From IMG/VR virus record IMGVR_UViG_3300036819_000112, positions 1 through 57,156 of that record: DNA of 57,156 nt. The stretch is one strand, 5' to 3'. Numbering within the stretch: the stretch's first letter is position 1; each line of letters starts with the position of its first letter. A model generated the notes under the pieces. The model did no database searches and had not been told where the DNA came from. It saw nothing but the letters and a program-made list of their open reading frames with translations. Of the stretch, positions 14,448 to 37,016 are shown one piece after another. Source of the DNA: a virus. Lineage: Duplodnaviria; Caudoviricetes. The position numbers and the translations under genes are program-made.

Positions 14448-14936
14448 ATGAAACGTCTCCTGCTCGCGAGCGTGGCCGCGCTGGCGCTCGCCGTCTCCGC
14501 GCATGCGCAGACTACCTCCGCCCCGGTTGGCCAGACCGCCGGCGGCGCGATCAATCAGAACGCGTTCAACAACAACAGCGACGCCGCTGGCTTCAACCAG
14601 ATGTCGTTGACCCCTGGGCTTGTGGTGCCCTCGACATCGACGGCGCAGGCCACCTGGGTGAACGGCGCGGTCGCCACGGGAACGCTGATCACCACGAAAA
14701 CCACGGTGATAACGACCTGTTCCGGCACCACGGGCGTGACGCTTCCCGCGATTCAGCGCTTCGAGCCGATCACCATCATGAACCGCTCCGGCGGCTCGTG
14801 TCTGGTATGGCCGTCGATCGGGGCAACCGTGGAGACGGCGCTGGGCACCGATGGCGCCTCAAACGCTCCATTCACCCAGTTGACCAATACCGACGTCACG
14901 TATCGACCCATCACCGGAACCCGCTGGCTACAGTAA
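14448..14936 (+). CDS. Signal-peptide protein, possible capsid decoration
   Basis: MKRLLLASVAALALAVSAHA-Q; GVTLP..ITIMN..LVWP beta-rich body with two Cys. Confidence 0.75.
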   Translation: MKRLLLASVAALALAVSAHAQTTSAPVGQTAGGAINQNAFNNNSDAAGFNQMSLTPGLVVPSTSTAQATWVNGAVATGTLITTKTTVITTCSGTTGVTLPAIQRFEPITIMNRSGGSCLVWPSIGATVETALGTDGASNAPFTQLTNTDVTYRPITGTRWLQ

Positions 14937-14974
14937 CCCCAACCCCATACCGCGCAGCACGGGGCCGATGCTGC

Positions 14975-15059
14975 TTCCCGCCGCCGGGGAAATCGGGCGC
15001 GATCAACGCGTAACGACCGGGTCGCACCCGGGAAAGCCGACGCCGGGCTCAATCGGGCA
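14975..15059 (+). ncRNA. Tandem pseudoknot-like cis-RNA motif (copies 1-2) in the scaffold leader
   Basis: TTCCC-GCCGCCG-GGGAA..CGGGCG and AGCC-GACGCCG-GGCT..CGGGCA. Confidence 0.65.
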
Positions 15060-15071
15060 GAAAGTACCACC

Positions 15072-15893
15072 ATGAGTGATATTGATAGCTTCCTGACCGG
15101 AGACGATCCCGGGCAGGCGGAGGCTGAACAGCCGTCCGAACCACAGGCTCCGGAAGCGACGCCGGCTGAGGCAGAAACCGAGGACAAGCCGGTCCCTGCC
15201 AAGGAGGAGGCCGATGACAGCCAACCTGAGGATGTCGTCGGCCTCAAGAGCGCTTTGCAGGCCGAGCGGGCGCGCCGGCGCGACTACAAGGGCGAAAGGG
15301 ACCGTCTGCAAGGCGAGAGGGACGCGCTCATGGCGCAGATGGAGGTGTACCGCAAGGCTCCTCCTGCACCTCCTGCACCCCCGTCCGTGCCACAGGCTGT
15401 CGCGCCGCCGGAGCGGGTGCCCAATCCGGTCGAGGATCCCGAAGGCTATGCGGCCTGGCAGGAGCAGCGATTCGAGAAACGGCTGTTCAATGAGCGATTG
15501 AACATCTCCGAACGGATGCTGCGCGCGAGGACCGATTCGGCGGACGTCGATGCCAAGATCGCGGTGTTTCGAAAGGCCGCCGCTGATAATCCCGGACTTC
15601 GCGCGCAACTCGGAAGCCATCCCGACCCCTACCAGTTCGCCTACGACACCGGTGCGAGGTTTCTGGCGATGGAGGAAATCGGCACCGATCCGGCCGCCTA
15701 TCGAGCCAAGGTCGAAACTGAACTGCGCGCGAAGATTGAGGCGGAATTGGCCGGCACCCAACCATCCGCACCCGCACCTCGCGTCACTCTACCGCAAAGC
15801 CTCGGCACCGCGCGATCCGCCGGACCGCGTTCGGGGCCGCCGATCAACGTGGCGGAGAGTTTCGACGACATCCTGGCGCGTCCACGGAAGTAG
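15072..15893 (+). CDS. Capsid scaffolding protein
   Basis: Acidic N-terminus, ALQAERARR coiled coil, PNPVEDPEGY, HPDPYQFAY; between portal and capsid. Confidence 0.85.
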   Translation: MSDIDSFLTGDDPGQAEAEQPSEPQAPEATPAEAETEDKPVPAKEEADDSQPEDVVGLKSALQAERARRRDYKGERDRLQGERDALMAQMEVYRKAPPAPPAPPSVPQAVAPPERVPNPVEDPEGYAAWQEQRFEKRLFNERLNISERMLRARTDSADVDAKIAVFRKAAADNPGLRAQLGSHPDPYQFAYDTGARFLAMEEIGTDPAAYRAKVETELRAKIEAELAGTQPSAPAPRVTLPQSLGTARSAGPRSGPPINVAESFDDILARPRK

Positions 15894-16425
15894 GTAATTC
15901 AAAGCGGGCGAACGCGCCGTGGAGGCGCGTGGCTGCTTCGCAATACGCGGCATGGGCCAGTTGCTGGGTCGGGAACAGACCGAGGTTACTTTTCCGGCCG
16001 CTAACCCAAATCTCGGCAGACCAAGCCGCTCGTCTGGTGTTCCAATGAACGCCCTTCAACCCGCTGTTGTTGTCGCAACGGACGCGCATGTTCATTTTAT
16101 TTTGGGATGATGTGGCCGCTCTAAGGTTCCGCCAACGGGTGTTGCCGGGATCGTTGTCGATGTGATCAATTTCAAACGGAGGCCACGCGCCGGTCATCCA
16201 GAGCCACGCTAGGCGGTGGGCATGATATAGCCAACCGTTTACCGCGATTTGGATGTAGCCTCGGTTGGTCACGCTTCCAGCTACCCGGCCAGCGTTGCGG
16301 GTGTTCCATTCTCGTCTGGCATTTGGCCTATATCGCCAAGTGAATAAGCCGGCCTGTGGATCATAGTCTAGCGCCGCACGAAGTTGGTCCGCCGTCAGCG
16401 GATCGTCTACACGAGGTTTAACCAT
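15844..16425 (-). CDS. HNH homing endonuclease with AP2-like C-terminus
   Basis: LDYDPQAGLFTW, AHRLAW, IDHID...N...NLR, SGLKGV, AAYCEAA..LHGAFAR. Confidence 0.9.
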   Translation of the reverse strand: MVKPRVDDPLTADQLRAALDYDPQAGLFTWRYRPNARREWNTRNAGRVAGSVTNRGYIQIAVNGWLYHAHRLAWLWMTGAWPPFEIDHIDNDPGNTRWRNLRAATSSQNKMNMRVRCDNNSGLKGVHWNTRRAAWSAEIWVSGRKSNLGLFPTQQLAHAAYCEAATRLHGAFARFELPTSVDAPGCRRNSPPR

Positions 16426-16552
16426 GATCTGCTCCCGAGCAGTGATTGGTAAGAGGTCCGGATCGCTGTTTCCGCAGCGCCGGGCCTCGCCATCGATACC
16501 ACCATTTGTCGCCGCTCGCAGGCCGTTTCGGTCTCGCGGCTTCACGTTTTCA

Positions 16553-16647
16553 CCTGCCGCCGAGGGCCGCAAGGCAACGGGCGATCTAGCCTCCCGGAAG
16601 TCGGACTCGGGGACCGAACATCGTCGCCGGATGGGTTTTGCCGGGCG
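16553..16647 (+). ncRNA. Tandem pseudoknot-like cis-RNA motif (copies 3-4) in the capsid leader
   Basis: CCT-GCCGCCG-AGG..CGGGCG and CATC-GTCGCCG-GATG..CGGGCG. Confidence 0.65.
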
Positions 16648-16696
16648 TTTCGCAATACACCGCCCCCTCTTACTCCATCAGGAAGGATATCGTGCT

Positions 16697-17806
16697 ATGG
16701 CCGATATGAATATCACTTCGGCACGGGCCGGCTTAACGCCGACCCTGTGGGACAAGATGTTTTTCGCCGAATACATCAGGGCGAACCGGTTCAAGAAGTA
16801 CATGGGAACCGACGAAAATTCTATGATACAAATCAAGGACAGCTTGACCACCAAAAACGGTGACAGCGTGAATTTCGCCGCCGTCCGCCGCCTTGTGGGT
16901 GCCGGGGTCACTGGCAATACCGTGCTTGAGGGCAACGAAGAAATCCTCGACCAGCGCTCGATGAAACTGGCCGTAGCCCCGATTCGCCATGCGGTGGCGG
17001 TCTCCGACTGGGATGAGCAGAAATCGACCATCGAGCTACGGGACGCGGCGAAAACCGCGCTCAAAAACTGGTCGATGGAAAAGCTGCGCAACGACATCAT
17101 CATCTCGCTGTCGAGTGTCGGCGGCATCCCGTACGCCACCGCCACCTCGACGCAGCGCAACCTTTGGCTCGCGAGCAACTCCGACCGCGTCCGGTTCGGC
17201 GCCGCGGCGGCGAACTTCTCCTCCGGCGTCATGGCCACCGCGCTGGCAACGCTCGACAACACCGCCGACAAGATGACCGGAGCGTTCCTGTCGCTGTGCA
17301 AGCGTCAGGCGCAGACCGCGTCGCCGCATATCCGCCCGATCATGACCAACGACACCAACGACGAAGAGTGGTTTGTCGCTTTCCTGCCGTCGCTGGTGTT
17401 CCGCGATTTCAGGAACGACCCGGCGGTGCTGGCGGCCAACAAGGACGCTCGCCCGCGGGAGACCAGGTGGATGGACAATCCCATGTTCTCCGGCGGCGAC
17501 ATGGTCTGGGACGGGATCATTGTGCGGGAAATCCCCGAACTGCCGGTCCTGACCGGTGTCGGAACCGCCGGGATCGATGCGGCGGCCTCGTTCCTCTGCG
17601 GTGCCCAAGCGGTTGGCGCGGCCTGGGCGCAACGTCTCCGCACGACGACCAATGTCCGCGACTACGGCTACTTCCACGGTGTCGGTATTCAGGAGATGAG
17701 GGGCGTGGGCAAATTGCAGTTCGGCCGCGACGCAGCAGTGGATACGACCACAGAAGTCGATCAAGGGGTGTTCACGATGTTCACCGCGGCAGTGGCGGAC
17801 GTTTAA
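16697..17806 (+). CDS. Major capsid protein (N4-gp56/DUF4043-like)
   Basis: GVTGNTVLEGNEE, RHAV, NPMFSGG..WDGIIVREIP, FLCGAQA, DYG...G motifs; strong RBS. Confidence 0.9.
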   Translation: MADMNITSARAGLTPTLWDKMFFAEYIRANRFKKYMGTDENSMIQIKDSLTTKNGDSVNFAAVRRLVGAGVTGNTVLEGNEEILDQRSMKLAVAPIRHAVAVSDWDEQKSTIELRDAAKTALKNWSMEKLRNDIIISLSSVGGIPYATATSTQRNLWLASNSDRVRFGAAAANFSSGVMATALATLDNTADKMTGAFLSLCKRQAQTASPHIRPIMTNDTNDEEWFVAFLPSLVFRDFRNDPAVLAANKDARPRETRWMDNPMFSGGDMVWDGIIVREIPELPVLTGVGTAGIDAAASFLCGAQAVGAAWAQRLRTTTNVRDYGYFHGVGIQEMRGVGKLQFGRDAAVDTTTEVDQGVFTMFTAAVADV

Positions 17807-17822
17807 CTAGGAGAACACTTGC

Positions 17823-18149
17823 ATGCCGCGGTTCATCGCGCGCCCGGTTGAAGTCGAGGCGCATCAGTATGACGGCACCACCGTCTGCATGCCGGACGAT
17901 TTCCGCCGCGCGCTGATCCGCCATCTTCCGAACGGGACGGTTGAGTTTTTGACCGGCGATGGTCCACGGCCCTGCAAGTACCATGACTGGGTGGTGCGGG
18001 GTCCGGACGGCCTGCTCTCGGTCATCCGCGACGCCACCTTTGAGGCGATGTTCACGCCTCTGGTCACCGCCTCTCCGCCTGAAGCACTGCAGCCTGCGCC
18101 GCCGATCACGGCCAAGCGCGCTGGAAAGAAGGACGTTACCCATGCCTGA
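17823..18149 (+). CDS. Hypothetical protein (PGDYG-like fold)
   Basis: PVEVEAHQY...DWVVRGPDG...FEAMF. Confidence 0.65.
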   Translation: MPRFIARPVEVEAHQYDGTTVCMPDDFRRALIRHLPNGTVEFLTGDGPRPCKYHDWVVRGPDGLLSVIRDATFEAMFTPLVTASPPEALQPAPPITAKRAGKKDVTHA

Positions 18150-18555: not shown

Positions 18556-18556
18556 C

Positions 18557-18805
18557 ATGGCCGATGACTTGTATCATGTCGGCATGGCATGGGCGGCGGA
18601 CGGTGAAAGCCGCCCGTCGCGGTTTCGCACCGTGCTCGCGCGAGCTCCTGGTGCCGGCGATGGCGCTCTTTTCGTCGAGGACGGTGATGATTCCCGGCGC
18701 CAGTGGATATTGGCGAGCGAGTGGCAGGCCTGGGTGAAGGAGACCAACGCCAAACTCGTCCCGGCGGTCGAGGAGTCGGGCGATGATGATCCGCACGCCG
18801 CATGA
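18557..18805 (+). CDS. Hypothetical protein
   Basis: Coupled ORF. Confidence 0.6.
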   Translation: MADDLYHVGMAWAADGESRPSRFRTVLARAPGAGDGALFVEDGDDSRRQWILASEWQAWVKETNAKLVPAVEESGDDDPHAA

Positions 18806-20082: not shown

Positions 20083-20098
20083 TCCTGGTTGAGGATTT

Positions 20099-20743
20099 AT
20101 GGGCACTTTTCGCCTTGCGACCTCGCGTCTGGTCCGCAATCCGGTCCGGGTGCAGACCTGGAACGGGTCGATTCGCGCCGGCGATGACTTCAAGCTCGCG
20201 CTCACGGTGTTCACGGACGACAGCGGAACCCCTGCGCAAGTAGCCGGCTCAAGGTCTCGCCTGACCCTGTGGCCCGATCGCTCCCGTGGCTTTGGGAGCA
20301 GTCCAGACTACGGGTTTGCGTGGTTCACCGGGGGCAGCCTGATCAATTCGCCCGGAATCAGAGTACAGACCGATGGGCTGGTGACGCCGGTGCGCGACGG
20401 CGGGATCAATTTCGCCATTCCAGCGTCAACCACGGCCGGGATGTGGCTCGGCAGGTATCGGCTGGTGCTGCAGGTCGATCTGCCTGACGGGGAATTCTCC
20501 CAGGTCGAGGGCATCCTGCAGGTGCGCGAGCGCTGGCAGCCGTCGGGACTGGGCCATACGCCCGGGGTGTTTTTCCAACTCGACGTCTCGCAACTCGATC
20601 TGGCGATCCTCGCACCTGTCCTGGTGGGTGGAGTGCCGGTCGATGACGATGGGTTCTTCCTGCTGACGAGCGACTTCCAGCCGGTGCTGCCGGCCAACGC
20701 GCCGCTCGATGAATTCGTATTGGATCGGAACCAACTCGCATGA
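20099..20743 (+). CDS. Virion protein (BppU/Ig-like tail-fibre attachment candidate)
   Basis: IRAGDDFKLAL...GRYRLVLQV..EGILQV beta pattern. Confidence 0.6.
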   Translation: MGTFRLATSRLVRNPVRVQTWNGSIRAGDDFKLALTVFTDDSGTPAQVAGSRSRLTLWPDRSRGFGSSPDYGFAWFTGGSLINSPGIRVQTDGLVTPVRDGGINFAIPASTTAGMWLGRYRLVLQVDLPDGEFSQVEGILQVRERWQPSGLGHTPGVFFQLDVSQLDLAILAPVLVGGVPVDDDGFFLLTSDFQPVLPANAPLDEFVLDRNQLA

Positions 20744-22569
20744 GATTGCGCGCGTGGCTCGTCGGGTTTTGTCTGCTGGCTGGTGCAGCTCTTGCCCAGA
20801 CGCCTGGCAGCTTCGTCGGAACGTCAACCAATCCAACGGCCGCGCCTCTTTCGGCTGCAAGTCTGAACGCCGCGTTCGGCCGCAAGGTTGATACGACCAA
20901 CGGCGTCCTCACAAATCCAACCATCAACGGCGGTGCCGTCAACGCCGCCACGGGTGCGTTCTCGGGGGCGCTGAGTGCGGCAGGGGCCGTATCGGGAGCG
21001 GGCTTTACCGCGCTGTTGTCACCCTATGCGCTGGCCAGTTCGGATGCGCTGAAGTTGCCTTTGGCCGGCGGGACGCTGACCGGACCATTGGTGGGGACGT
21101 CAGGGACGTTCTCCGGAGCGATCAACGCGGGAAGCCTGGCGATCAACGGCGCTTTGTTGGTGCCGTTAGGGACCATTCCCGGAGGGGGCGCCAATACCAC
21201 AATATTTGCGGGGGTAAATACTGGGCTAAATCTCGGATCCGCTAGCAATTTCTCGACTTTTTATGGCTCCTCTTCAGGTGCTGCTTATAACGATACCGGT
21301 AGTGGCGAAGTTTCCGGTTTTGGCGTCGGGTCCTGTTCTTCACTGGTATTGCCCGCAATCCACGACACCTGTCTCGGCGTCTACACGCTGCACTACGAGA
21401 CTACCGGCCAGCAGGACGTCGCGGTCGGCGGCGACACGATGCGTAATACTGCCCTGGTCAGTGCTGGCACGGCCATCGGGTCTCGCGCTCATCAAGATTA
21501 TCGCGGACAGAAATCATTTGCGGGGGGTGCCTTTGCCCTCTACGGCAATGCCGCCTCGATTCTCATCGGGGGCACCGCCACGGCGGCAGACGTTATTACA
21601 CTGACGTTCACATCGACAGCCATCAGCGGCGGCTCTGTCGCCATCCCCTACACTGTGTCGGGTGGGGACACGCCGGCGACCATCACCGCCGCTCTAAGTG
21701 CTGCAGCCAACGGGTCAGCGCCGCTTATCGCGGCGGATATCCGGGTCGGTGGCGATATCACTGCCTCGCCCAATGTCATTCCTATCGTAGGGCCGAACGC
21801 CGCCGCCGCTGGTCCAGCGCCGCTAGTTGTAACGGCTGCGATAGCGGGTGCGGCGACAGAAACCGTGACGATCACCGGCGGCAGTGATTCTGCGAGCACG
21901 CGCAATAACGCGACGGGCTTCGACAGCATGATGGGGTTGCGGATAACCACCTCCAGCTTCAACAATGCATATGGTGCCTACACTCTGGCGAACCTCACCA
22001 CCGGGTCGCACAATAACTGCTACGGTGACAGCGCATGCCAGTTCGGTACCACGCTGGCCACGACATCGGCATTCGGCGACAGCGCATTCAAGGCTGCGAC
22101 GACAGCGAATTCGCTGGTCGGGATGGGCAACAATGTTGGCGCTCTCTGCACGACATGCCGCAACGTGACCTTGCTGGGAAATAATGCCGGCCAGACCACG
22201 CTGACGACTGGCAACGACATCATCATCATCAGCGACGGGTCGGCTTGCGACACGAACAGTCCGAACCGGTTGATGATGTGCGGATCGGGCGGCACTTTCC
22301 TGCAGTTCACCGGCACGAACACTGCCGCCTCGTCGATTGGCTACGTCCCGGGCGGCTTTTTGGTTGGCTCCACCACTGTAACAACTAACGTCGGCAACGC
22401 GGAGATTGGCATCAAAGAGGCGACGCTTTCCGGCGTCGCCCCCGGCGCCGGGATTGGCAAACTAGCCGTTGCAGCGGGGACCAGCGTCGGGACGTGCAAA
22501 TTGGTGTTCTACGGCGGCAGCACAGCCACCCCGGTCACCGTGCTCGATAATGTCGGGTCGGGATGCTGA
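20740..22569 (+). CDS. Tail fibre-like beta-helix protein with N-terminal signal peptide
   Basis: MRLRAWLVGFCLLAGAALA-Q; LPLAGGTLTG; N/T..G...A beta-roll repeats; paired Cys. Confidence 0.8.
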   Translation: MRLRAWLVGFCLLAGAALAQTPGSFVGTSTNPTAAPLSAASLNAAFGRKVDTTNGVLTNPTINGGAVNAATGAFSGALSAAGAVSGAGFTALLSPYALASSDALKLPLAGGTLTGPLVGTSGTFSGAINAGSLAINGALLVPLGTIPGGGANTTIFAGVNTGLNLGSASNFSTFYGSSSGAAYNDTGSGEVSGFGVGSCSSLVLPAIHDTCLGVYTLHYETTGQQDVAVGGDTMRNTALVSAGTAIGSRAHQDYRGQKSFAGGAFALYGNAASILIGGTATAADVITLTFTSTAISGGSVAIPYTVSGGDTPATITAALSAAANGSAPLIAADIRVGGDITASPNVIPIVGPNAAAAGPAPLVVTAAIAGAATETVTITGGSDSASTRNNATGFDSMMGLRITTSSFNNAYGAYTLANLTTGSHNNCYGDSACQFGTTLATTSAFGDSAFKAATTANSLVGMGNNVGALCTTCRNVTLLGNNAGQTTLTTGNDIIIISDGSACDTNSPNRLMMCGSGGTFLQFTGTNTAASSIGYVPGGFLVGSTTVTTNVGNAEIGIKEATLSGVAPGAGIGKLAVAAGTSVGTCKLVFYGGSTATPVTVLDNVGSGC

Positions 22570-22598: not shown

Positions 22599-22874
22599 AT
22601 GAGGCATCTCACGCTTCTGGCCGCGCTCCTGCTCCCGCTTGCCGCGCACGCGCAGCCCGCCCCCCCATCGGCATCCGCCAACCTGGCCGGGCAACTGGCG
22701 CAGAACCTGAGTGCCGCGATGACTGAGAACGACGCGCTTCGGGCGCAGAACACTGCCCTGCAAGCGGAGGTCACCAGCCTGAAGGCAGCGGCGAAGCCTG
22801 CCATCCCACGCGATCCACCCGCGACGGTCGCACCGGCGCCGAACGCCACGCTGCCAGCGCCGAAGGCGCCCTGA
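22599..22874 (+). CDS. Signal-peptide coiled-coil protein (fibre chaperone candidate)
   Basis: MRHLTLLAALLLPLAAHA-Q then heptad repeats. Confidence 0.7.
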   Translation: MRHLTLLAALLLPLAAHAQPAPPSASANLAGQLAQNLSAAMTENDALRAQNTALQAEVTSLKAAAKPAIPRDPPATVAPAPNATLPAPKAP

Positions 22875-22900: not shown

Positions 22901-24538
22901 ATGCCCGACATTTTCGCCGAATTCGAGTTCGTGACCTACACCAAGCTGAACAACACGTTCGGGCTGTACGCTTTGCAGGCCGATCTGCTCACGCTCGGCG
23001 ACTCGGTCACCGGTCTCTCAGGATCGATCGCGGGTCAAGCGGCGTCGATCGCCGCTCTCCAGGCTGCTGAAGCCAGTACAGCCCTGCTGCCGTTCATCCA
23101 GTCGATCACGGTCCCGGCCGCGGTCGGGCTGCTGAGCTATCTCCCGCCGTCAACCGGGGGCGTGGCCCGGGGGTTGGTGGGCAAGCTCAGCGACCAGATG
23201 AGCGTCGCCGATTTCGGCGCGGTCGGTGACGGGGTAGCCGACGACACCGCGGCGGTGCAGGCGGCGATCGTCGCTGCCGAGGCACATGCTCGCTCCCTGC
23301 ATCTGATCGGCTTGACCGGATGCGTCTTCAAGATCACCGCGCCGCTTACGATCACCGGTCCGCTGCGGCTTATCGGCACAGGAACCGCGCAGTCTTCCTT
23401 GACCGCCGCGGGAAACTTCGCCGCGATCCTGTCGCTCACTGGGGCCTGCCAGCAGGTCTGGGTCGAGCACCTTGGCCTGATCCAGACCGGAACCACGACG
23501 CGCTGCGTCGTCGCCGCGCCCGGTGCTCAGGGCATTAAGTTTTTCGAGACGAGCTTCACCGGCAACCTGTCCGGGATTCTGGTCTACACCCAAGCGGCGG
23601 GGTTCGTGGAGTTCCAGAACTGCATCTGGCTTTGCAGCGCGGCCAGCACGATCGGGATCGTCTTCGACGGCTACAACCAGAACTGCGAGATTTCCGGTGG
23701 GCATGCCGGCGGTGCCGGCACGTTCCTCATCGTGCAGAACAGCACCGGCAACGTCGCAAATAACGTCCAGGGCCTGAGGATTTGTGATTTCGCCTCGGTC
23801 TGCACTGGTCCCACGGCGATCACGATCAGCGACCAGGCATTCGGGACCTTCCTCTCCAACTGCGTCATCGACCAGGCCGGAACCGCGTGCGTGCTGATCG
23901 AAGCCGGGGCTGAACTGACGCAGATCGCCGGCGGGTATTATGGTGTCACCGACACGGTGCATGGCATCTGCATCCAGGTGGCTGCGACAGCGGGGGCCGG
24001 CACGACGATCGATGACGTGCAGTGCTTCGGGGGCGCGCAGTCGATAGCGGTTCAGGCGTCGGTCTCCTCGCGGGTCACTCAGGTTTCGATCCGCAACAAC
24101 TCCTTCAGCGCCGCTGCGGCCTGCTCTCTGGTGCTTGACAGCGTCAACGGCTGCCAGGTCGAAGGCAATCTGGACATGGGATCGCCCTCGCTCGGCTCGT
24201 GGGCAACCTCGGCGACCAATGCCGCAGGTGCTTATACCTTCGGAAACAACACCTGGACCGCGCACACGCTGTCCACCGTCGATCCGACCAGTTCCTACCG
24301 TGCGACGCCAGACCGCGGGGTCACGCTGGCTGCCAAAGGGCAGAGCACATCGGGTGCGGGTGCTACCTCGCTGGTGGTCAATCATGGCCTGCTGCTGACG
24401 CCGTCGGCGATCAATGTCACCCCGATCGGCTCGGTCGGGGCATTTTGGCTGAGCGCGGTCGGCGCGACCTCCTTCACCATCAACTGGACCACTACCGGGA
24501 CGTTCACCTGGCTGTGGGACGCCGGGGTCCACGACTGA
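22901..24538 (+). CDS. Tailspike (pectate-lyase-like beta-helix)
   Basis: SVADFGAVGDGVADDTAAVQAAI; C-terminal VNHGL..TP. Confidence 0.85.
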   Translation: MPDIFAEFEFVTYTKLNNTFGLYALQADLLTLGDSVTGLSGSIAGQAASIAALQAAEASTALLPFIQSITVPAAVGLLSYLPPSTGGVARGLVGKLSDQMSVADFGAVGDGVADDTAAVQAAIVAAEAHARSLHLIGLTGCVFKITAPLTITGPLRLIGTGTAQSSLTAAGNFAAILSLTGACQQVWVEHLGLIQTGTTTRCVVAAPGAQGIKFFETSFTGNLSGILVYTQAAGFVEFQNCIWLCSAASTIGIVFDGYNQNCEISGGHAGGAGTFLIVQNSTGNVANNVQGLRICDFASVCTGPTAITISDQAFGTFLSNCVIDQAGTACVLIEAGAELTQIAGGYYGVTDTVHGICIQVAATAGAGTTIDDVQCFGGAQSIAVQASVSSRVTQVSIRNNSFSAAAACSLVLDSVNGCQVEGNLDMGSPSLGSWATSATNAAGAYTFGNNTWTAHTLSTVDPTSSYRATPDRGVTLAAKGQSTSGAGATSLVVNHGLLLTPSAINVTPIGSVGAFWLSAVGATSFTINWTTTGTFTWLWDAGVHD

Positions 24539-26019
24539 TGTCGGACGCCCTCGCCACGCTGCGGACTGCGCTCAGCCCGAAAGGGAGCATGCGGCGCATC
24601 CCGATCCCGCTCGAAAGCTACCAGCATCCATCCCCGGCATTATCGGCCAAGCGGCTGCTCAACATGCTGGCCGAACAGGAGCCGGCGGACGCGCGCACCG
24701 CCGCGGCGCTGATCCCGGTGCATGGGCTGCGGCTCGCCGCCGACGTGTTCGGAGCGGGGCCGATCACCGCGATGAACTCCGACCAGCCGGGCGTGATGTA
24801 TGTCGCATCGGGCACGCATTTTTTCCGCATGACGCAGCCCTTCGGCGGTCCAAGGGTGATCGAGGACCTGGGCGAAATCGGCATCCCGGGCGGTGCCGAC
24901 TATTCCATCAACCTGATGGTCACGATCGCGGTCGGGGTGACCGCGGCCGTCGTCTGTGTGCCGCCGAACGCCTTCACCTGCCCCCATGCCGGGGCGCTCA
25001 ACCAGATCGGTGGCACCTTTCCCGGTGCGAGGTCGGTGGCCTATCTCGACGGCTACTTCGTTTTCACCTCCGACGATGACGACTCGAACTTCTTCTGTTC
25101 GCTGCTGCTTGACCCGACGATGTTCGATGCGCTGGATTTCGCCTTCGCCGACGGCGTGCCGAACGTCCTGCACCGGGTCATCCCCTTGGCTGGCGAGTTG
25201 TGGCTGGCTGGCGATACCGCCATGGAGGTGTGGTACGACGCCGGCGCTGCGGACTTCCCGTTCCGCCGCCAGTCCGGCGGGGTGGTTCCATACGGCGCGG
25301 TTTCGATGAAATCCATCGTCGTGCTGGATGGGTCGTTGTTCTGGCTGGCTTCGAACGGTTCGGTCCTGCGCTCGCAGGGCTACAAGGCGGTGCGGGTTTC
25401 GACCCATGCGATCGAGTCGCTGATCCAGGCGATCGGGATTTTCCAGATCGTCTCGGCCGTCGGCTATACCTACAAGGGCCACCGGTTCTACTGCCTGACT
25501 TTTGTCGGCCACACCCTGGTCTATGACACCCAGACCAACGTCTGGCACGAACGGTCAAGTTCCGCCGATGGCGCCGCGGCATGGCTGGTGAGTGCGGTGG
25601 CTCAGGTCGGCTCGGACACGATTTTCGGCACCTCCGGATCGGGGCGGACCTTCAACCCGTTCGACAATGACGACGACGACGGGATCCAGGTGATCCGCCA
25701 CATCGTCCTGCCGCCGCTGTGGGGTGGCACCTATCTCGGCTTCTGCCACCGGCTGGAGATCGAGATGGAACGCGGCGGCGTCGATCCGACCGGAAATGTC
25801 CTCCTGGAATGGTCCGATGATGACGGCCTGACCTGGAAGGGTGGCCGGGTGATGACGGCCGGCACCACATCGGGCTATCGCGGGCGGGTGTTCACCACCC
25901 GGCTCGGGTCGTTCCGTGCGAGGATATTCCGCCTGACTGCCCATCACCGCTGCACGGTGTATGCCGTGGAAGCGGCGATTTCCGGGGGTGCATCGGGCGC
26001 GCCGGACTTCGCGCCCTGA
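24538..26019 (+). CDS. Tail hub / packaged-DNA stabilisation protein (P22 gp10-like)
   Basis: SVAYLDGYFVF, FDALDFA.A, EVWYDAG..FPF, RVSTHAIE, WSDDDG.TW, RLGSFR. Confidence 0.88.
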   Translation: MSDALATLRTALSPKGSMRRIPIPLESYQHPSPALSAKRLLNMLAEQEPADARTAAALIPVHGLRLAADVFGAGPITAMNSDQPGVMYVASGTHFFRMTQPFGGPRVIEDLGEIGIPGGADYSINLMVTIAVGVTAAVVCVPPNAFTCPHAGALNQIGGTFPGARSVAYLDGYFVFTSDDDDSNFFCSLLLDPTMFDALDFAFADGVPNVLHRVIPLAGELWLAGDTAMEVWYDAGAADFPFRRQSGGVVPYGAVSMKSIVVLDGSLFWLASNGSVLRSQGYKAVRVSTHAIESLIQAIGIFQIVSAVGYTYKGHRFYCLTFVGHTLVYDTQTNVWHERSSSADGAAAWLVSAVAQVGSDTIFGTSGSGRTFNPFDNDDDDGIQVIRHIVLPPLWGGTYLGFCHRLEIEMERGGVDPTGNVLLEWSDDDGLTWKGGRVMTAGTTSGYRGRVFTTRLGSFRARIFRLTAHHRCTVYAVEAAISGGASGAPDFAP

Positions 26020-26507
26020 TGGTCGCCATTCCGACTTCGCCGCAGCCGCCGGTCAACGAAGTGCCGATTGCGCCGGATGGCCAGCATACCCAGGCCTGGT
26101 CGCAGTACCACCAGAAGATGTCGGACGCGCTCAAGGTGATCGGCCAGTATCTCTCCGCCACCGGCGGCCCGGTGGCGTTGACGACCTCGACCGCGGCCAA
26201 CATCGCTTCGCTATCTCTCCCCGCCGGGGACTGGGATGTATCGGGGCGGATCACGTTCTCTCCGGCGCCGACGACCCATCCTATTCAACTCGAAGCCGGG
26301 CTGAGCTCGGTTTCGGCTGCGTTCTCGACGCCGCCTTCGGGACTCTCGACAGCGTTCACCGCCGGCATCCCGGCCACCATCGATGCGGGCGTCGCGCGGT
26401 TCGATCTCACCGAGGCGACCGTGGTTTATCTCGTCGGCTTCGCAAGTTTCACTGTCGCTGGAATGACGGCCTCGGGATCGATCAGCGCGCGGCGGGCGGG
26501 CGGGTGA
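26019..26507 (+). CDS. Tail-associated protein
   Basis: Position; SLSLPAGDWDVSG...GSISARR. Confidence 0.7.
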   Translation: MVAIPTSPQPPVNEVPIAPDGQHTQAWSQYHQKMSDALKVIGQYLSATGGPVALTTSTAANIASLSLPAGDWDVSGRITFSPAPTTHPIQLEAGLSSVSAAFSTPPSGLSTAFTAGIPATIDAGVARFDLTEATVVYLVGFASFTVAGMTASGSISARRAGG

Positions 26508-27052
26508 GATTTCTGCGGATCGCTCAGGGCGTCGATATGATGCCGCTGCTGCTTGAACTGCATCGGGCGCCGCAGCTGTGGGACCAGAACCCGGCTCGGC
26601 GGCAGTACGAGGGCACGCCGCACGCGGCCATGCGCGACATCTGGGTCAGGTTCCGCCCGGCTGAGGAGCTTACTGGCCCGGATGCGTTCTGGGGTGAATA
26701 TCGGTGCGTGTTCTGGCCGGCCTGGCATGAATTACCATCCCTGCGACCCATGGTATTTGCCTTGATGAGCAAGGTTTCCGCGGTCGAACTGGGATCGATA
26801 CTGATCACGCGGCTGCCGCCGGGCGGCGAAATACTGGCGCACTCGGACCAGGGCGGGTGGGGGCCGGGGTGGTTCAACTGCAAGTGCCATCTGACCGTCG
26901 CTGGATCATCCGAAAGCATGTGCGACGGGGAGACTGTGACCATGAGGACGGGTGATATTTTCACCTTCGACAATCTGCTGGTCCACAGCGTCAAAAACGC
27001 CGGCGACTGCGACCGGATCGTCTGTATCGTCAGCATGAGGTGCGAACCATGA
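26504..27052 (+). CDS. 2OG-Fe(II) oxygenase, Asp/Asn beta-hydroxylase-like
   Basis: LPPGGEILAHSD...FDNLLVHSVKN..DRI (HxD...H...R); GTG start coupled to the upstream stop. Confidence 0.8.
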   Translation: MRFLRIAQGVDMMPLLLELHRAPQLWDQNPARRQYEGTPHAAMRDIWVRFRPAEELTGPDAFWGEYRCVFWPAWHELPSLRPMVFALMSKVSAVELGSILITRLPPGGEILAHSDQGGWGPGWFNCKCHLTVAGSSESMCDGETVTMRTGDIFTFDNLLVHSVKNAGDCDRIVCIVSMRCEP

Positions 27053-27393
27053 ACCTGCAAAGGCTCGCTGAACAGCCGATTTCGACGGACATCCGCATGT
27101 GCGAGGGGTTGTTCGTGAAGCACTGCATATTCGCGGAAGGGGCGTATATACCGCAGCACTCCCATCAGGATGCGCATCTTTCCGTCATCGCTACAGGAGC
27201 TGTTCGCGCATGGGCGGACGGTGAACTGCTGGGTGACTTCCGAGCGCCTGCCGGCATCGTCATCCAGGCGCGATGCAAGCATATGTTCCTGGCATTGGAG
27301 CCGATGACGACAATCTTGTGCGTCCACCGTGTCGAGCAGGGCGGCGAACCAGTGGTGCACGAAGAACACCACATCGATTTCGTGGAGGCATAA
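27049..27393 (+). CDS. Cupin-domain protein
   Basis: PQHSHQDAHLSVIATG...I.A..KHMF..LE. Confidence 0.75.
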   Translation: MNLQRLAEQPISTDIRMCEGLFVKHCIFAEGAYIPQHSHQDAHLSVIATGAVRAWADGELLGDFRAPAGIVIQARCKHMFLALEPMTTILCVHRVEQGGEPVVHEEHHIDFVEA

Positions 27394-30547: not shown

Positions 30548-30548
30548 G

Positions 30549-34322: not shown

Positions 34323-34353
34323 CGCTCTTCCTGCGACTCACGAAGGGTTCCCC

Positions 34354-34809
34354 ATGCTGAAACGACTCCTCGTCGCCGCACTCCTGTGCGTGCTGTCGGC
34401 TGGTGCGATGGCGCAGCAGGCGGTTCGCGTCCAGACCTGCGGTCAGGCGGGATCGGCTCCCCCAAACGTCTCTCCGCTGTTCGTGGATGCCAACGGCAAC
34501 CTCTGCGCCAATGGCCCCTCCAATCCCGTCGGCCCGGCCATGGCCCCGTTCACCGCGACAGTCACGGACCAGGCGTTGACCCTGACGCTCCCGGGCCGGT
34601 TCCGCCTCGAAAATCCGCAATACCAAATCGGCACGACGACGTTCAACACGACACCGCTGCAGATCAACTATGCCGGGGGGAATGCCTGCACCGCGCCGAC
34701 GGCGACGCTCTCGCCCGGCCAGATCGACGACTGGTTTGTGATCAGCGGAACCACGCAACCGCATGTGTGCGTGCCGACGGGCACGCTCCAGATCGAGGCC
34801 CAGCAGTGA
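34354..34809 (+). CDS. Signal-peptide protein, four Cys in the mature part
   Basis: MLKRLLVAALLCVLSAGAMA-QQ; VDANGNLC. Confidence 0.8.
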   Translation: MLKRLLVAALLCVLSAGAMAQQAVRVQTCGQAGSAPPNVSPLFVDANGNLCANGPSNPVGPAMAPFTATVTDQALTLTLPGRFRLENPQYQIGTTTFNTTPLQINYAGGNACTAPTATLSPGQIDDWFVISGTTQPHVCVPTGTLQIEAQQ

Positions 34810-37016
34810 TGACCTTGCGCACGATCATCGCCGCGCTGGCGACGTGGGCCATGCTTCAGGGTGCGATGGCGGCCAGTACTGCGCCATCACCCCCGCCGGC
34901 CGCTCCATACCAGCTTGTCGGCACGCGCGCCGGTGCGCATGGGTTTTCCCTGAATGTCACCACTGGCTTGCAGCGCTGGAATCAGAGGTCGCAGCACTGG
35001 GCGCCATACGGTGCGCGGTCTCTGAGACTGATCCTGCCGGGCTGGGCACCGATCGCGTCGGCGCAGCCCTTCCGCGGTGACCAGGCAATCGCGAACTCGA
35101 TCCTTTACATGACCAGCGCGACGGTTGTGTCGGGCGGCTCGCAATACAGCGTCGGCGACATCCTCGTGATGCCGGTATGGGGTGCGGGTTTTGAGCCGGC
35201 GCTGCTTTACGTCGATGCTGTGGCGGCCGGCGTAATCACCAAGGTTCACGTGCTGCGCGGCGGCGCCTACCAGTTGACGACGCCACTTGCGGACGGCACA
35301 GGCCAGATGGCCGTGTGGCAGGCGACGTTCGGCTACGGCGCTTATTCGGAAAGCCAAGGCTTCACCGGGTCGAACCTGAATGGCTACAATCTATCGAACC
35401 TGAACGGCGGCGCGCGATACGTCGCGGCCAACACATTCATCTCGGTTGCATCCGGCCCCGCCTGCACTGGCGGGACGATCTCGGCCACGGTCGATAGCGC
35501 CGTCTCCGCCATCAACAGCACGCCCCCGGCTGGAACGTGGACCTGCACCGACACCACGCATATGAACGCGGTGTACGCGATCAGCAGCGGCGCCACGCTG
35601 GGCGGGCTCGGCTCGGGCGCGACGTTCAACTTCACCTGGCAGGGCGCCGCCTACCTGGCCCGCGTGTCCGTGGACCCTGTCTGGACTGACGAGACCTGTT
35701 CCAACCAACTTACGGGCGTCTGCGTGCATGTGCCCGCGACGGCGTCCAGCCCTTACCCGAACGCCGGTCCCGACGCGCTCGGCAACACGATGGACATCTA
35801 CGTCCCGTCGGGCGCCGATGTCGTCACGGACCCGATCCCCATCAACATCGCGCCTGGCGCTTCATTCGGCATCCGCACCTTCGTCTTCGGGTCCGTGCCG
35901 CAGTCGCGCATGACGGTGACGAACGGAGAGGGGCAGGCAACTGCGTCTTTCACGAACTACGACAAGACGATGTTCTCGTCGTTCGGCCAGGGCGCGGTGA
36001 CCTCGCCGGCCGGGATGTTGGAATTTGTGGGCATCCTGGGACAGCCTACCGTGGCTGGACCCACGCCGTCTCTGCTCTCGATCACCGATAGCCGCGGTGC
36101 CGGGACGATCGGCTTTGCGAACACGAGCGGCTTCGATGTCTACGACTATACTGGCGGGTCGCAGGGCTGGCTTGAGCGCGCGGTCAACAACACCATGCCG
36201 ATCGTCGCCTACAATCATTCTGGAGATGCGATCTACTACTGGCAGCGCAATCACCAGATGCACCTCGATGGGCTGAAGAAAGTGGCTGGGTTCGGCAAAT
36301 TTCCTGAACTCTGCTACCAGGGGATGTCGATCAACGACGAAAACCAGTTGGCGCTTTCTTTCGCCACTGTCGCGGCGTCCGAAGCACAATTGGTCAAGGA
36401 ACTGCGCGGCCTCGGCTGCAAGTTCGTGTTCGCCACCACCGATGACCCGGTCGCTTCGGTCTCCGACACGAACCACGGCATCATCTGGGCGGACATCAAC
36501 ACCCCCGGCTCTGGCTATGGCGCTAACCAGACCTTCACCGTCACAGTGGCGGGCGGCACGTTCACGACGGCGGCGACCGCCACAGTCACGACGGACTCAG
36601 GCGGCGCGGTGCGGCAGGTGAACGACATCACGAACGGCGCCTATACCGCGGACCCGACAACCACGGCCAACGTCGTGACGGGAGGAAGCGGGACAAACCT
36701 GAAGCTCAACCTCTACATGTCATCGTTCGGAAATCCAGCTACGCAGACCCCGAATGGTGTGGCGAACCCCACGCTTCAGTTGCGCAACGCCGCCCTGCGG
36801 CAGCTTGTTTCGGCTGGGACCGGCACTTATGCGGGCGTCTACGACGGCGTTCTCGACTTCGCTGGCATCACCGAGACCTCGATCGCAAGCGGCGTGTGGA
36901 CGCCGTTCTGCACCGCAGACGGTCTCCATGCCTCGGTCAAGTGCCAGATCGCCAAGGCAAACTATGCCCGGCCGATCATCGCGGGGTGGGCCGCGCGTGC
37001 CTACGGGATGCGCTGA
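34809..37016 (+). CDS. SGNH/GDSL hydrolase-domain protein with signal peptide
   Basis: ITDSRG (block I), SINDE (block III), DGLH (block V); GGSQYS/PGSGYG repeats; N-terminal signal ending AMA. Confidence 0.8.
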   Translation: MTLRTIIAALATWAMLQGAMAASTAPSPPPAAPYQLVGTRAGAHGFSLNVTTGLQRWNQRSQHWAPYGARSLRLILPGWAPIASAQPFRGDQAIANSILYMTSATVVSGGSQYSVGDILVMPVWGAGFEPALLYVDAVAAGVITKVHVLRGGAYQLTTPLADGTGQMAVWQATFGYGAYSESQGFTGSNLNGYNLSNLNGGARYVAANTFISVASGPACTGGTISATVDSAVSAINSTPPAGTWTCTDTTHMNAVYAISSGATLGGLGSGATFNFTWQGAAYLARVSVDPVWTDETCSNQLTGVCVHVPATASSPYPNAGPDALGNTMDIYVPSGADVVTDPIPINIAPGASFGIRTFVFGSVPQSRMTVTNGEGQATASFTNYDKTMFSSFGQGAVTSPAGMLEFVGILGQPTVAGPTPSLLSITDSRGAGTIGFANTSGFDVYDYTGGSQGWLERAVNNTMPIVAYNHSGDAIYYWQRNHQMHLDGLKKVAGFGKFPELCYQGMSINDENQLALSFATVAASEAQLVKELRGLGCKFVFATTDDPVASVSDTNHGIIWADINTPGSGYGANQTFTVTVAGGTFTTAATATVTTDSGGAVRQVNDITNGAYTADPTTTANVVTGGSGTNLKLNLYMSSFGNPATQTPNGVANPTLQLRNAALRQLVSAGTGTYAGVYDGVLDFAGITETSIASGVWTPFCTADGLHASVKCQIAKANYARPIIAGWAARAYGMR

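What the first reader, a model, noticed from the sequence alone, without database searches (positions are those of the whole stretch)
14448..37016. Five virion-operon proteins carry Sec signal peptides: a possible periplasm-matured virion decoration system
Seen: ORFs at 14448 (MKRLLLASVAALALAVSAHA-Q), 20740 (MRLRAWLVGFCLLAGAALA-Q), 22599 (MRHLTLLAALLLPLAAHA-Q), 34354 (MLKRLLVAALLCVLSAGAMA-Q) and 34809 (MTLRTIIAALATWAMLQGAMA-A) have a basic n-region, hydrophobic core and AxA site. Four have Gln at +1. Four have multiple Cys in the mature chain (e.g. CYGDSAC, CTTC, terminal C...GSGC). The 20740 fibre has an LSAASLNAAF segment right after the signal that resembles the TKLNNTF N-terminus of the signal-less tailspike at 22901, and its neighbouring coiled-coil partner is also exported. 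Established: tailed-phage virions assemble in the cytoplasm; disulfides form in the periplasm; N-terminal Gln can cyclise to pyroglutamate. Inference: fibre, chaperone, decoration protein and SGNH esterase are exported, folded oxidatively and docked onto particles only at lysis, or act as secreted surface-modifying or receptor-masking factors.
Basis: partly seen in the sequence, partly recalled or inferred. Interest (0 to 1): 0.82.

Follow-up and report, generated by a model that had tools for sequence, protein, structure and literature searches.

The report
Phage fibre-type proteins carrying export signals
A complete 57-kb short-tailed temperate phage puts ordinary bacterial secretion signals and paired cysteines on five late proteins, three of them of the fibre or knob type, so these parts very probably fold in the periplasm, away from the cytoplasm where the particle is built.

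Summary
Observation confirmed. The five ORFs are real late-operon genes of a complete 57,156-bp virus record with a P22-like tail. Each starts with a Sec/signal-peptidase-I-type leader: 5 of 69 gene calls pass my heuristic, against 0.32% of internal windows. The leaders are kept in every complete homolog that I could read, while their sequences drift. Cysteines are even in number. In the esterase family they are gained and lost in pairs, and in the 14448 family the leaderless members lack both cysteines. Export and oxidative folding are therefore well supported (about 0.85).

- 14448 has a fibre, tailspike or capsid-spike knob fold.
- 20740 is a modular fibre-like protein; its leader plus N-module recurs in the cultured Acetobacter phage phiAX1.
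- 22599 is an exported coiled coil that co-occurs with leader-bearing fibres.
- 34809 looks SGNH-like by motifs and Atlas neighbours only; Pfam gave no match.

What happens after export is not shown. I favour soluble glycan-binding or glycan-modifying accessory factors (about 0.45) over docking onto particles at lysis (about 0.2). This scan has noted the same pattern on other phage DNA. Seven literature searches found no description of it for tailed-phage fibres.

The parts
14448..14936 (+). p14448, 162 aa. Signal peptide residues 1-20 (AHA|Q). The mature chain has a conserved arm and a beta-sandwich knob (residues about 51-162) with one Cys pair (C91, C118). It lies between the portal and scaffold genes.
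   Evidence: Leader conserved in 9 of 9 complete homologs in related loci. AF2 model pLDDT 83. VIA Z 9.4, 8.8, 8.6, 7.7 and 7.4 to phage tailspike, baseplate, fibre and capsid-spike domains; the next unrelated row is 5.9, then 3.9. 38 BFVD matches at E<=1e-3; nearly all rows shown are phage proteins (some named tail fibre, head fibre, gp9/gp10, collagen repeat) plus a few giant-virus collagen-repeat proteins. Leaderless family members lack both Cys.
20740..22569 (+). p20740, 609 aa fibre-like protein. Signal peptide residues 1-19 (ALA|Q), a conserved N-module (about 20-66), a beta-rich repetitive body and 10 Cys, with a Cys as the last residue.
   Evidence: ATGA overlap with 20099 and no alternative start. 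6 of 6 complete homologs have leader plus Gln; P0007 shares only leader plus N-module (86% identity) and then carries a beta-helix, PF13229. N-module also in L009 3609-4715 and phiAX1 gene 26418-27383 (41% over 66 aa, E 1e-7). Cys columns co-occur in pairs. Fold not established: AF2 pLDDT 53.5, best Foldseek E 0.057.
22599..22874 (+). p22599, 91 aa. Signal peptide residues 1-18 (AHA|Q), a helix of about 35 aa with coiled-coil character, a Pro-rich tail, no Cys.
   Evidence: Heuristic score 6.1. Sub-threshold Pfam hits to a leucine zipper and DivIC. An analog of the same build follows the leader-bearing fibres in L009 (6409-6657), but BLASTP finds no sequence likeness. No such gene in L004 or L005, which carry leaderless fibres.
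34354..34809 (+). p34354, 151 aa. Signal peptide residues 1-20 (AMA|QQ), a conserved N-module with a Cys pair (C29, C51) and a variable C-terminal domain (C112, C139).
   Evidence: 3 of 3 homologs have leader plus QQ. P0017 and P0018 keep the N-module but carry a different C-terminal domain. Atlas neighbours are unnamed viral clusters at 0.87-0.88, a lead only.
34809..37016 (+). p34809, 735 aa. Signal peptide residues 1-21 (AMA|A), N-terminal beta domains, then an SGNH-like esterase half (DS 427-428, G472, ND 509-510, DGLH 704-707). 8 Cys.
   Evidence: 5 of 5 homologs have a leader. The four blocks and 8 Cys are invariant in 6 of 6 sequences, and 4 further Cys pairs are gained or lost together. 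ESM Atlas: GDSL-like clusters by features (0.84) and by structure (TM 0.81 by the hit). Pfam: no family, 0 of 6. PDB profile search: nothing.
20099..20743 (+). Leaderless 214-aa protein upstream of the fibre. A conserved N-terminal part of 186 aa and a variable C-terminus; candidate fibre adaptor.
   Evidence: Homologs in L004, L005 and L009; the L009 copy has a 110-aa C-terminal extension. No Pfam family and no cultured-phage match.
22901..24538 (+). Leaderless tailspike, 545 aa, pectate-lyase-like beta-helix.
   Evidence: PF12708 at E 1.3e-8; 11 tail-spike or tail-protein PHROGs. N-terminus like the leaderless fibres of L004 and L005.
24538..26019 (+). P22 gp10-like tail hub.
   Evidence: phrog_578 at E 1.4e-70. 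47 cultured-phage records, annotated gp10 / packaged DNA stabilization protein.
37807..38346 (+). Soluble endolysin with no membrane segment. It is part of the lysis region, together with a membrane-anchored coiled-coil protein at 37074-37559 and a lipoprotein at 39551-39895.
   Evidence: phrog_315 at E 1.6e-19. TM and lipobox scan.

Best explanation
The five genes are expressed with the late (particle and lysis) genes.

1. Each product is threaded unfolded through the host Sec translocon and cut by signal peptidase I. In four of the five this leaves an N-terminal Gln.
2. Each product folds in the periplasm, and its cysteines pair into disulfides there. The small coiled-coil protein 22599 probably serves the fibre 20740 there as an assembly partner.
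3. The products are glycan-recognition-type or glycan-modifying-type proteins: a knob (14448), a modular fibre (20740), a small modular protein (34354) and an SGNH-like esterase (34809).
4. I commit to the reading that they work as soluble accessory factors, not as parts built into the particle. They would act on envelope polysaccharide or peptidoglycan from the periplasm late in infection, and on debris and neighbouring cells once holin, endolysin and spanin release them.

Shown by comparison: the leaders and their conservation, the cysteine pairing pattern, the knob fold, and the modular build. Inferred: export itself (about 0.85), disulfide formation, the partner role of 22599, and the soluble fate. 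The confidence given is for the whole chain.
For: **Leaders.** 5 of 69 gene calls against 0.32% of internal windows. They are kept in all complete homologs: 9 of 9, 6 of 6, 3 of 3 and 5 of 5. No alternative start exists for 20740.

**Cysteines.**
- All mature chains have even counts.
- In the esterase family, 4 pairs are invariant and 4 more pairs are present or absent together.
- In alignment A4 of the 14448 family, the 4 leaderless members lack Cys in both columns. Of the 15 leader-bearing members, 13 have Cys in both columns and the other 2 in one.

**Accessory behaviour.**
- 20740 and 22599 are missing from L004 and L005, which carry a leaderless fibre and a leaderless second gene instead.
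- In L012, a leader-bearing pectate-lyase-like protein (PF12708, E 4.1e-9) and two further leader-bearing genes sit with the 14448 homolog between portal and scaffold, not in the tail module.
- The window has a complete leaderless set of hub, tailspike and candidate adaptor.

**Enzyme content.** SGNH blocks in 34809. Beta-helix bodies behind the same kind of leader in P0007, P0037 and P0038.

**Precedent for exported tailspike-like enzymes in bacteria.** WceF (PMC7949094, passages read).
Against: - No trained signal-peptide predictor and no experiment. The leader of 34809 is the weakest (score 5.4), with T, W and Q in its core.
- The genes are tightly packed and translationally coupled inside the late operon, unlike typical morons. 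A consensus scan found no promoter or terminator around them, but that scan is not suited to this host.
- A conserved N-module with a swapped C-terminal body is the hallmark of particle-attached receptor-binding proteins.
- 14448 is present at the same place in every relative examined and has the fold of virion appendages.
- In L009 the only stand-alone fibre genes between adaptor and hub carry leaders.
- Late expression leaves little time to remodel a cell surface from inside (inference).
- A soluble lectin or enzyme would be released by lysis from the cytoplasm too. Export therefore needs its own reason, such as disulfides.
Confidence: 0.45

Rival explanations
1. Late docking. The exported fibre, knob and perhaps the esterase are true particle appendages. 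They fold and trimerise in the periplasm, then bind the finished P22-like tail or head when the holin opens the inner membrane and the compartments mix, or in the lysate.
For: - Leader plus N-module is conserved while the body is swapped: P0007, L009 3609-4715 and phiAX1.
- Between the window and phiAX1, this N-module and the gp10-like hub are the only late-region similarities found by tblastn at E<=1e-3.
- A short L-x4-LN-x2-F type motif lies about 11 residues from Met1 in leaderless fibres of the same slot and 14-16 residues after the predicted cut in the leader-bearing ones (descriptive, since the pattern was written after seeing the sequences).
- In L009 the stand-alone fibre genes of the slot all carry leaders.
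- 14448 has the knob fold of tailspikes, fibres and a capsid spike, and is a fixed gene of the head module.
- The endolysin is soluble, which implies a large-hole holin (inference).
Against: - L004 and L005 do without the leader-bearing fibre.
- The window has a leaderless tailspike with its own anchor-type N-terminus.
- In L012, leader-bearing tailspike-like genes sit beside the portal.
- Binding after lysis would be limited by dilution (inference).
- No particle proteome exists for any relative; the phiAX1 paper does not mention tail fibres, SDS-PAGE, mass spectrometry or signals.
Confidence: 0.2
2. Periplasmic action before lysis only. The esterase removes O-acetyl groups from peptidoglycan or from nascent surface polysaccharide, which helps the muramidase-type endolysin or strips the receptor. 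The fibre-like proteins bind glycan in transit and mask or block receptor export, which gives exclusion of other phages and less loss of progeny on debris.
For: - 34354 and 34809 lie directly before the lysis region.
- One Atlas structural row for 34809 is the periplasmic Ape1-type esterase cluster, at TM 0.52 by that row.
- Rhodoferax phage P26218 has a leader-bearing 169-aa protein (Gln at +1, 2 Cys) in the same slot before its GH108 endolysin.
- Bacterial periplasmic tailspike-like enzymes exist, such as WceF.
Against: - The best Atlas rows are viral GDSL-like clusters, not Ape1.
- These are late genes of a temperate phage, so they would not be expressed in the lysogen (inference).
- This reading gives no reason for modular N-modules.
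- Receptors already on the outer face cannot be reached from the periplasm (inference).
Confidence: 0.15
3. The hydrophobic N-termini are not export signals. They would be membrane anchors, assembly handles removed by a phage protease, or mis-called starts.
For: No trained predictor was run. Matrishin et al. (PMC10367356, passages read) suggest that signal-like N-termini on capsid proteins of Porphyromonas phages are removed by the prohead protease.
Against: - The positive n-region, uncharged core and small residues at -3/-1 are kept in all complete homologs across four unrelated families.
- Cysteine pairing co-varies with the presence of the leader.
- 20740 has no downstream start.
- The five proteins have no lipobox and no twin-arginine motif.
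Confidence: 0.05

Closest known systems
Leaderless tail fibres and tailspikes of P22-like podophages (here 22901; the L004, L005 and L012 fibres)
   Same: Same genomic slot between adaptor and gp10-like hub. Conserved N-terminal part with a swapped C-terminal body. A short LN-containing N-terminal motif. A small gene after the fibre.
   Different: The known ones have no leader, few or unpaired Cys, and are assembled onto the tail in the cytoplasm.
Pantoea stewartii WceF (PMC7949094; passages read)
   Same: A trimeric tailspike-fold protein sent out of the cytoplasm by an N-terminal signal. It acts on the cell's own exopolysaccharide.
   Different: WceF is bacterial and encoded in a polysaccharide gene cluster. 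It uses a Tat signal, so it is exported folded, and it is not encoded in a phage late operon.
Signal-peptide proteins of Porphyromonas gingivalis phages that obey the Bacteroidetes Q-rule (Matrishin et al. 2023, PMC10367356; passages read)
   Same: Phage genes with signal peptidase I sites that expose an N-terminal Gln. The authors read this as adaptation to the host's secretion system.
   Different: Those are capsid, spanin and unknown genes of Bacteroidota phages, and the passages I read name no fibres. Here the host lead is Acetobacteraceae and the proteins are of fibre or knob type with paired Cys.
Bdellovibrio mosaic adhesive trimer fibres (Caulton et al. 2024, PMC10769870; search listing and start of abstract only)
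   Same: Fibre proteins of phage-tail-fibre type used outside the cytoplasm by a Gram-negative cell.
   Different: They are encoded by a predatory bacterium and displayed on its own surface. I did not read the paper beyond the listing.
Filamentous-phage coat proteins g3p and g8p (recalled, no call)
   Same: Virion proteins with Sec leaders, and periplasmic disulfides in g3p.
   Different: The whole filamentous particle is assembled at the membrane. Here the head and tail are of the cytoplasmic tailed-phage type.
T4 gp57A fibre chaperone (recalled, no call)
   Same: A small coiled-coil protein needed for trimeric fibre folding, which is a possible model for 22599.
   Different: gp57A is cytoplasmic and has no leader. 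No homology was tested or found here.

Membership tests
Sec / signal peptidase I (type I) signal peptide | Positively charged n-region, uncharged hydrophobic core of about 8-16 residues, small residues at -3 and -1 | tested here: met
   Own heuristic: the five are the top five of 69 gene calls, with controls. This is not a trained predictor.
Sec / signal peptidase I (type I) signal peptide | The feature is kept in homologs while the sequence drifts | tested here: met
   9 of 9, 6 of 6, 3 of 3 and 5 of 5 complete homologs.
Sec / signal peptidase I (type I) signal peptide | Actual translocation and cleavage | not testable with these tools
   Needs fractionation, N-terminal sequencing or reporter fusions.
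Lipoprotein (signal peptidase II) signal, as in Llp, Cor or o-spanins | Lipobox with Cys at +1 | tested here: not met
   No lipobox in the five. Lipoboxes are found only at 39551 and 51325.
Tat signal (as in WceF) | Twin-arginine motif in a long n-region | tested here: not met
   None of the five has RR. A few homologs start MRR (P0004, P0008), but with short n-regions.
SGNH/GDSL hydrolase (for 34809) | Match to the Pfam models PF13472 or PF00657 | tested here: not met
   0 families for 34809 at E<=0.1. 0 of 6 family members at E<=1.
SGNH/GDSL hydrolase (for 34809) | Blocks I (DS), II (G), III (ND) and V (DxxH) with catalytic Ser, Asp and His | tested here: met
   D427-S428, G472, N509-D510 and G705/H707 are invariant in 6 of 6. 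The Asp of block V is Glu in one sequence. The block definitions are recalled.
SGNH/GDSL hydrolase (for 34809) | SGNH fold | tested here: inconclusive
   ESM Atlas's own model (pTM 0.71) has GDSL-like clusters as nearest neighbours, at TM 0.81 by the hit and 0.46 by the query. I made no model of my own and ran no PDB fold search.
Phage fibre / tailspike knob domain (as in CBA120 TSP4 residues 79-174, Solidus gp83 C-terminus, Pa223 capsid spike) | Shared fold of the roughly 110-residue beta domain | tested here: met
   VIA Z 9.4 (rmsd 2.1, 81 aligned), 8.8, 8.6, 8.1, 7.7 and 7.4, well above the unrelated rows. 38 BFVD matches at E<=1e-3. PDB Foldseek best E 7.6e-3. This is fold level only.
Phage fibre / tailspike knob domain | Trimer formation and attachment to a particle | not tested
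P22-like tail machine (context) | gp10-type hub | tested here: met
   phrog_578 at E 1.4e-70. Cultured-phage hits are annotated gp10.
Moron (independently expressed accessory gene) | Own promoter and terminator, with variable presence among relatives | tested here: inconclusive
   Presence varies for 20740 and 22599. The genes are coupled to their neighbours, and the consensus scan is at chance level and unsuited to the host.
Spanin (for 22599) | An uncleaved N-terminal membrane anchor (i-spanin) or a lipobox (o-spanin), and a place in the lysis cassette | tested here: not met
   22599 has an AHA|Q cleavage-type site, no Cys, and lies in the fibre slot 14 kb from the lysis genes.

The most novel reading that the evidence does not exclude
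A tailed phage builds its particle in two compartments. Head, tail hub and ejection proteins assemble in the cytoplasm. Disulfide-bonded fibres, a head or tail knob and perhaps an esterase are exported by Sec and folded in the periplasm with an exported coiled-coil helper. They snap onto the particle only when the holin joins the compartments. Leader plus N-module would then be a portable 'export-and-dock' cassette shared with the cultured Acetobacter phage phiAX1.
Probability: 0.2. Interest if true: 0.9.

Novelty: new variant of a known kind. Interest (0 to 1): 0.62.

Why it matters
Textbook tailed-phage assembly is cytoplasmic. The exported phage proteins known so far are lysis proteins, exclusion lipoproteins and conversion enzymes.

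A conserved set of fibre-type and knob-type proteins with secretion signals and disulfide-type cysteines means one of two things. Either phages make a class of secreted, stable glycan-binding or glycan-cutting proteins that annotation pipelines currently label as tail fibres, or part of the host-recognition gear is added outside the cytoplasm.

Both readings matter in practice:
- for host-range prediction;
- for expressing phage receptor-binding proteins and depolymerases, which may need an oxidising compartment;
- for reading virion proteomes.

The link to phiAX1, a mitomycin-inducible phage of a culturable Acetobacter strain, makes the question testable at the bench.

Tried and rejected
**Searches for relatives that found nothing.**
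- Cultured phages: no match for the 23-kb late region by megablast. No match by tblastn for 14448, 20740 or 34809, for the N-part of 20740 at E<=1, or for 20099.
- Contig scans: 20740 in IMG/VR; the esterase alignment in GTDB genomes and in IMG/VR; the N-module alignment in IMG/VR; the fibre alignment in JGI metagenomes.
- Because of this I saw no genomic context for P0002-P0008, P0010-P0014 or P0016-P0018.

**Family and structure searches that found nothing useful.**
- Pfam and PHROGs gave no family for any of the five above threshold.
- PDB profile searches: nothing for the esterase family, and one chance-level row for the fibre family.
- The AF2 model of 20740 is poor (pLDDT 53.5). Its Foldseek rows (best E 0.057: phage tail, sheath and baseplate chains, and beta-helix enzymes) are not usable, so I call it fibre-like on sequence build only.
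- BLASTP finds no likeness between 22599 and its L009 analog.

**Complex prediction.** I folded three copies of 20099 with three copies of residues 20-100 of 20740. The verdict was 'no answer' (score 0.00, mark 0.32, controls not run). This is neither for nor against binding.

**Other dead ends.**
- The promoter and terminator scan of 10-30 kb is at chance level.
- Agrobacterium phage Atu_ph08 was fetched as a possible relative and dropped, because its architecture is different.
- Among three further cultured gp10-type phages, PBR31 has 0 of 17 and DSL-LC05 0 of 23 leader-bearing late genes, and P26218 has 1 of 18. The trait is therefore sporadic.

**Readings rejected.** Spanin, lipoprotein and Tat readings of the leaders; see Membership tests.

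**Literature.** Seven full-text searches listed no paper that describes Sec signals on tailed-phage fibres. I judged by titles and abstract starts, and by passages of five papers. Supplementary files were not opened.

Full report
**What the window is.** The window is a whole IMG/VR virus record of 57,156 bp with direct terminal repeats and about 64% G+C. My gene calls and the family searches give these genes, in order:
- an integrase and a ParB-methylase;
- the terminase and the portal (12401-14431);
- the scaffold (15072-15893) and a major head protein (phrog_334, E 2e-69);
- a P22 gp10-type hub (24538-26019, phrog_578, E 1.4e-70);
- a DNA-ejection protein (phrog_598) and two large internal proteins;
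- a soluble endolysin (phrog_315), followed by small membrane proteins and a lipoprotein.

It is therefore a temperate short-tailed phage with a P22-like tail. The nearest cultured portals are only 27-41% identical.

A host lead is Acetobacteraceae. A 15-kb contig with a portal 79% identical is binned with a Rhodopila MAG. The leader plus N-module of the fibre recurs in Acetobacter phage phiAX1. Binning of a phage contig is weak evidence for a host.

**The observation.**
- My heuristic ranks them as the top five of 69 gene calls.
- At the score of the weakest of them (5.4), 26 of 8198 internal windows pass, 0 of 163 internal Met positions pass, and 165 of 13,800 shuffled N-termini pass. Five of 69 is far above chance.
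- The starts are sound. 14448, 22599 and 34354 have purine-rich sites upstream, and 20740 and 34809 overlap the preceding stop codon. 20740 has no other in-frame start within 80 codons except a TTG at codon 3.
- Gln follows the predicted cut in four of the five. The mature chains hold 2, 10, 0, 4 and 8 Cys.

**Conservation of the leaders.**
- *14448, related loci.* Nine of nine complete homologs keep a leader that ends in a small-x-small site followed by Gln, although the core sequence differs. In L006 the first codons are out of frame, and L015 lacks the N-terminus.
- *14448, representative library.* In the 1.84-billion-protein library, 20 proteins match at E<=1e-3. By my heuristic 14 have a leader, and 13 of these have Gln at +1. 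Six have none; one of the six, P0019, is probably cut at the N-terminus.
- *20740.* Six of six complete homologs have leader plus Gln.
- *34354.* Three of three homologs have leader plus Gln-Gln.
- *34809.* Five of five homologs have a leader, with varied +1 residues.

**Cysteines.**
- In the esterase alignment, 8 Cys are invariant. Four further column pairs (38/65, 261/267, 359/363, 585/612) carry Cys in exactly the same sequences.
- In the fibre alignment, the column pairs 427/433, 470/473 and 503/514 behave the same way.
- In the 14448 family, the four leaderless members of alignment A4 lack Cys in both conserved columns. Thirteen of the fifteen leader-bearing members have both.
- This is what disulfide partners in exported proteins look like, and it ties the cysteines to the leader.
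- A counter-example for Cys content alone is the leaderless tailspike 22901, which has 14 Cys.

**What the proteins are.**
- *14448.* The model is good (pLDDT 83). Residues 51-162 match a C-terminal domain of the Acinetobacter phage Solidus tailspike (Z 9.4), the CBA120 TSP4 N-terminal domain (Z 8.8), a Klebsiella phage baseplate protein (Z 8.6), a fibre in a chaperone complex (Z 7.7) and the Pa223 capsid spike (Z 7.4). These stand well above the unrelated rows. The 38 BFVD matches at E<=1e-3 are nearly all phage proteins, most of them unnamed, plus a few giant-virus collagen-repeat proteins; several are named tail fibre, head fibre, gp9/gp10 or collagen repeat. The same domain ends two long leader-bearing beta-helix proteins, P0037 and P0038.
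- *20740.* It has a conserved leader plus N-module and a repetitive beta-rich body. P0007 shares only the first 50 or so residues (86% identity) and continues as a beta-helix. Its fold could not be established.
- *22599.* After its leader it has a short helix with coiled-coil character and a Pro-rich tail.
- *34354.* It keeps its leader and a Cys-bridged N-module in P0017 and P0018, but these have another C-terminal domain.
- *34809.* The SGNH blocks are invariant and the Atlas neighbours are GDSL-like, but no Pfam or PDB sequence match exists. The esterase label is therefore likely but not proven.

**Relatives.**
- *L004 and L005.* The homolog of 20099 is followed by a leaderless fibre and a leaderless second gene. 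Neither locus has a leader-bearing fibre or a coiled-coil gene.
- *L009.* The slot between the 20099 homolog and the hub holds two leader-bearing fibres. The first has the N-module of 20740. The second starts at a GTG that overlaps the stop of the first. An 82-aa gene built as leader, coiled coil and Pro-rich tail follows, and there is no leaderless tailspike.
- *Co-occurrence.* Leader-bearing fibres and the exported coiled coil therefore occur together: both present in two genomes (the window and L009), both absent in two (L004 and L005).
- *L012.* This more distant relative (portal 44% identical) has leader-bearing genes between portal and scaffold: a 115-aa protein, a 527-aa pectate-lyase-like protein (PF12708, E 4.1e-9), a 237-aa protein whose leader I judged by eye, and the 14448 homolog. 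Its tail slot holds a leaderless fibre.
- *phiAX1.* This phage was induced from Acetobacter sp. ATCC 21760 (PMC8566455, passages read). It has a 321-aa gene in the same slot whose first 60 residues align with 20740 (41% identity, E 1e-7). Apart from the hub, this is the only late-region similarity between the two phages. The paper does not mention tail fibres, SDS-PAGE, mass spectrometry or signals.
- *Other cultured gp10-type phages.* P26218 has one leader-bearing late gene just before its endolysin. PBR31 and DSL-LC05 have none.

**Gln at +1.** In 0.79 Mb of the candidate host bin, 7 of 31 signal-like N-termini have Gln at +1 and 8 have Ala (crude heuristic, and some rows are membrane proteins). 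Gln may therefore reflect host usage. It is nevertheless nearly universal in the fibre-type families here. The Bacteroidetes Q-rule and its use by Porphyromonas phages are in print (PMC10367356). I found nothing in print for this host group.

**Mechanism.** Export and periplasmic oxidative folding are the well-supported steps. The fate of the proteins after export is open.
- *For soluble accessory factors:* variable presence and variable position of the genes, a complete leaderless tail set in the window, and enzyme-type bodies behind the same kind of leader.
- *For late docking:* the conserved N-module with swapped bodies, the fixed slot, the knob fold, L009, and a short motif shared with leaderless fibres (descriptive only).
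- *My odds:* soluble about 0.45, docking about 0.2, purely periplasmic action about 0.15, not exported about 0.05.

**Earlier notes of this scan.** The scan's index lists the same pattern on other phage genomes. Its later checks kept the observation and priced the docking reading at about one in ten. I did not use these notes as evidence. One of them pointed me to the Matrishin paper, which I then read in passages.

**Limits.**
- No trained signal predictor was available.
- Only two structure models were made.
- Supplementary files were not opened.

Noticed in passing
L012 7050-10420: A more distant relative has leader-bearing genes packed between portal and scaffold: 115 aa, 527 aa (pectate-lyase-like), 237 aa (leader judged by eye) and the 14448 homolog. 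A 72-aa leaderless ORF lies among them. This looks like a movable cassette of exported tailspike-type proteins.
   Followed up: partly
L056 (phiAX1) 26418-27383: The cultured Acetobacter phage phiAX1 has a 321-aa gene annotated as hypothetical. It has a Sec-type leader (AFA|Q), the N-module of 20740 and 4 Cys in the mature chain, and it lies between an adaptor-like gene and a 606-aa protein upstream of the gp10-like hub.
   Followed up: partly
L057 (Rhodoferax phage P26218) 16496-17005: gp24, 169 aa, has a strong leader with Gln at +1 and 2 Cys. It lies after the internal proteins and just before the GH108 endolysin, which is the same slot as 34354 and 34809.
   Followed up: no
window 37074-40068: The lysis region is spread out. 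It holds a membrane-anchored coiled-coil protein (37074-37559), a soluble endolysin (37807-38346), a one-TM protein (38977-39372), a two-TM 65-aa protein (39369-39566), a lipobox protein (39551-39895, LAAC) and a 53-aa two-TM protein (39907-40068). Two minus-strand genes (38343-38871) lie in between.
   Followed up: no
window 51325-51753: A 142-aa ORF outside the late operon with a lipoprotein signal (LAGC). It is a candidate exclusion or conversion lipoprotein.
   Followed up: no
window 15844-16572 (minus strand): A 242-aa ORF on the opposite strand between the scaffold and capsid genes. By eye its sequence looks like an HNH-type homing endonuclease. It overlaps the long upstream extension of the capsid ORF. 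I ran no family search on it.
   Followed up: no
L009 2661-3566: The homolog of 20099 carries a 110-aa C-terminal extension ending ...VHWFAS. By eye this resembles the leaderless form of the 14448 knob family, so the 'adaptor' may itself be a fibre with a swappable tip.
   Followed up: no
L006 14176-15326 and L003 11688-12811: The capsid gene matches in two overlapping pieces in different frames in both records. This could be a frameshift, a programmed shift or an assembly error. L006 also has a frame break at the start of the 14448 homolog.
   Followed up: no
L016-L055 (candidate host bin): Gln is as common as Ala after predicted signal-peptidase sites (7 and 8 of 31). This hints at a Q-preference outside Bacteroidota, but the sample is small and the heuristic crude.
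   Followed up: partly
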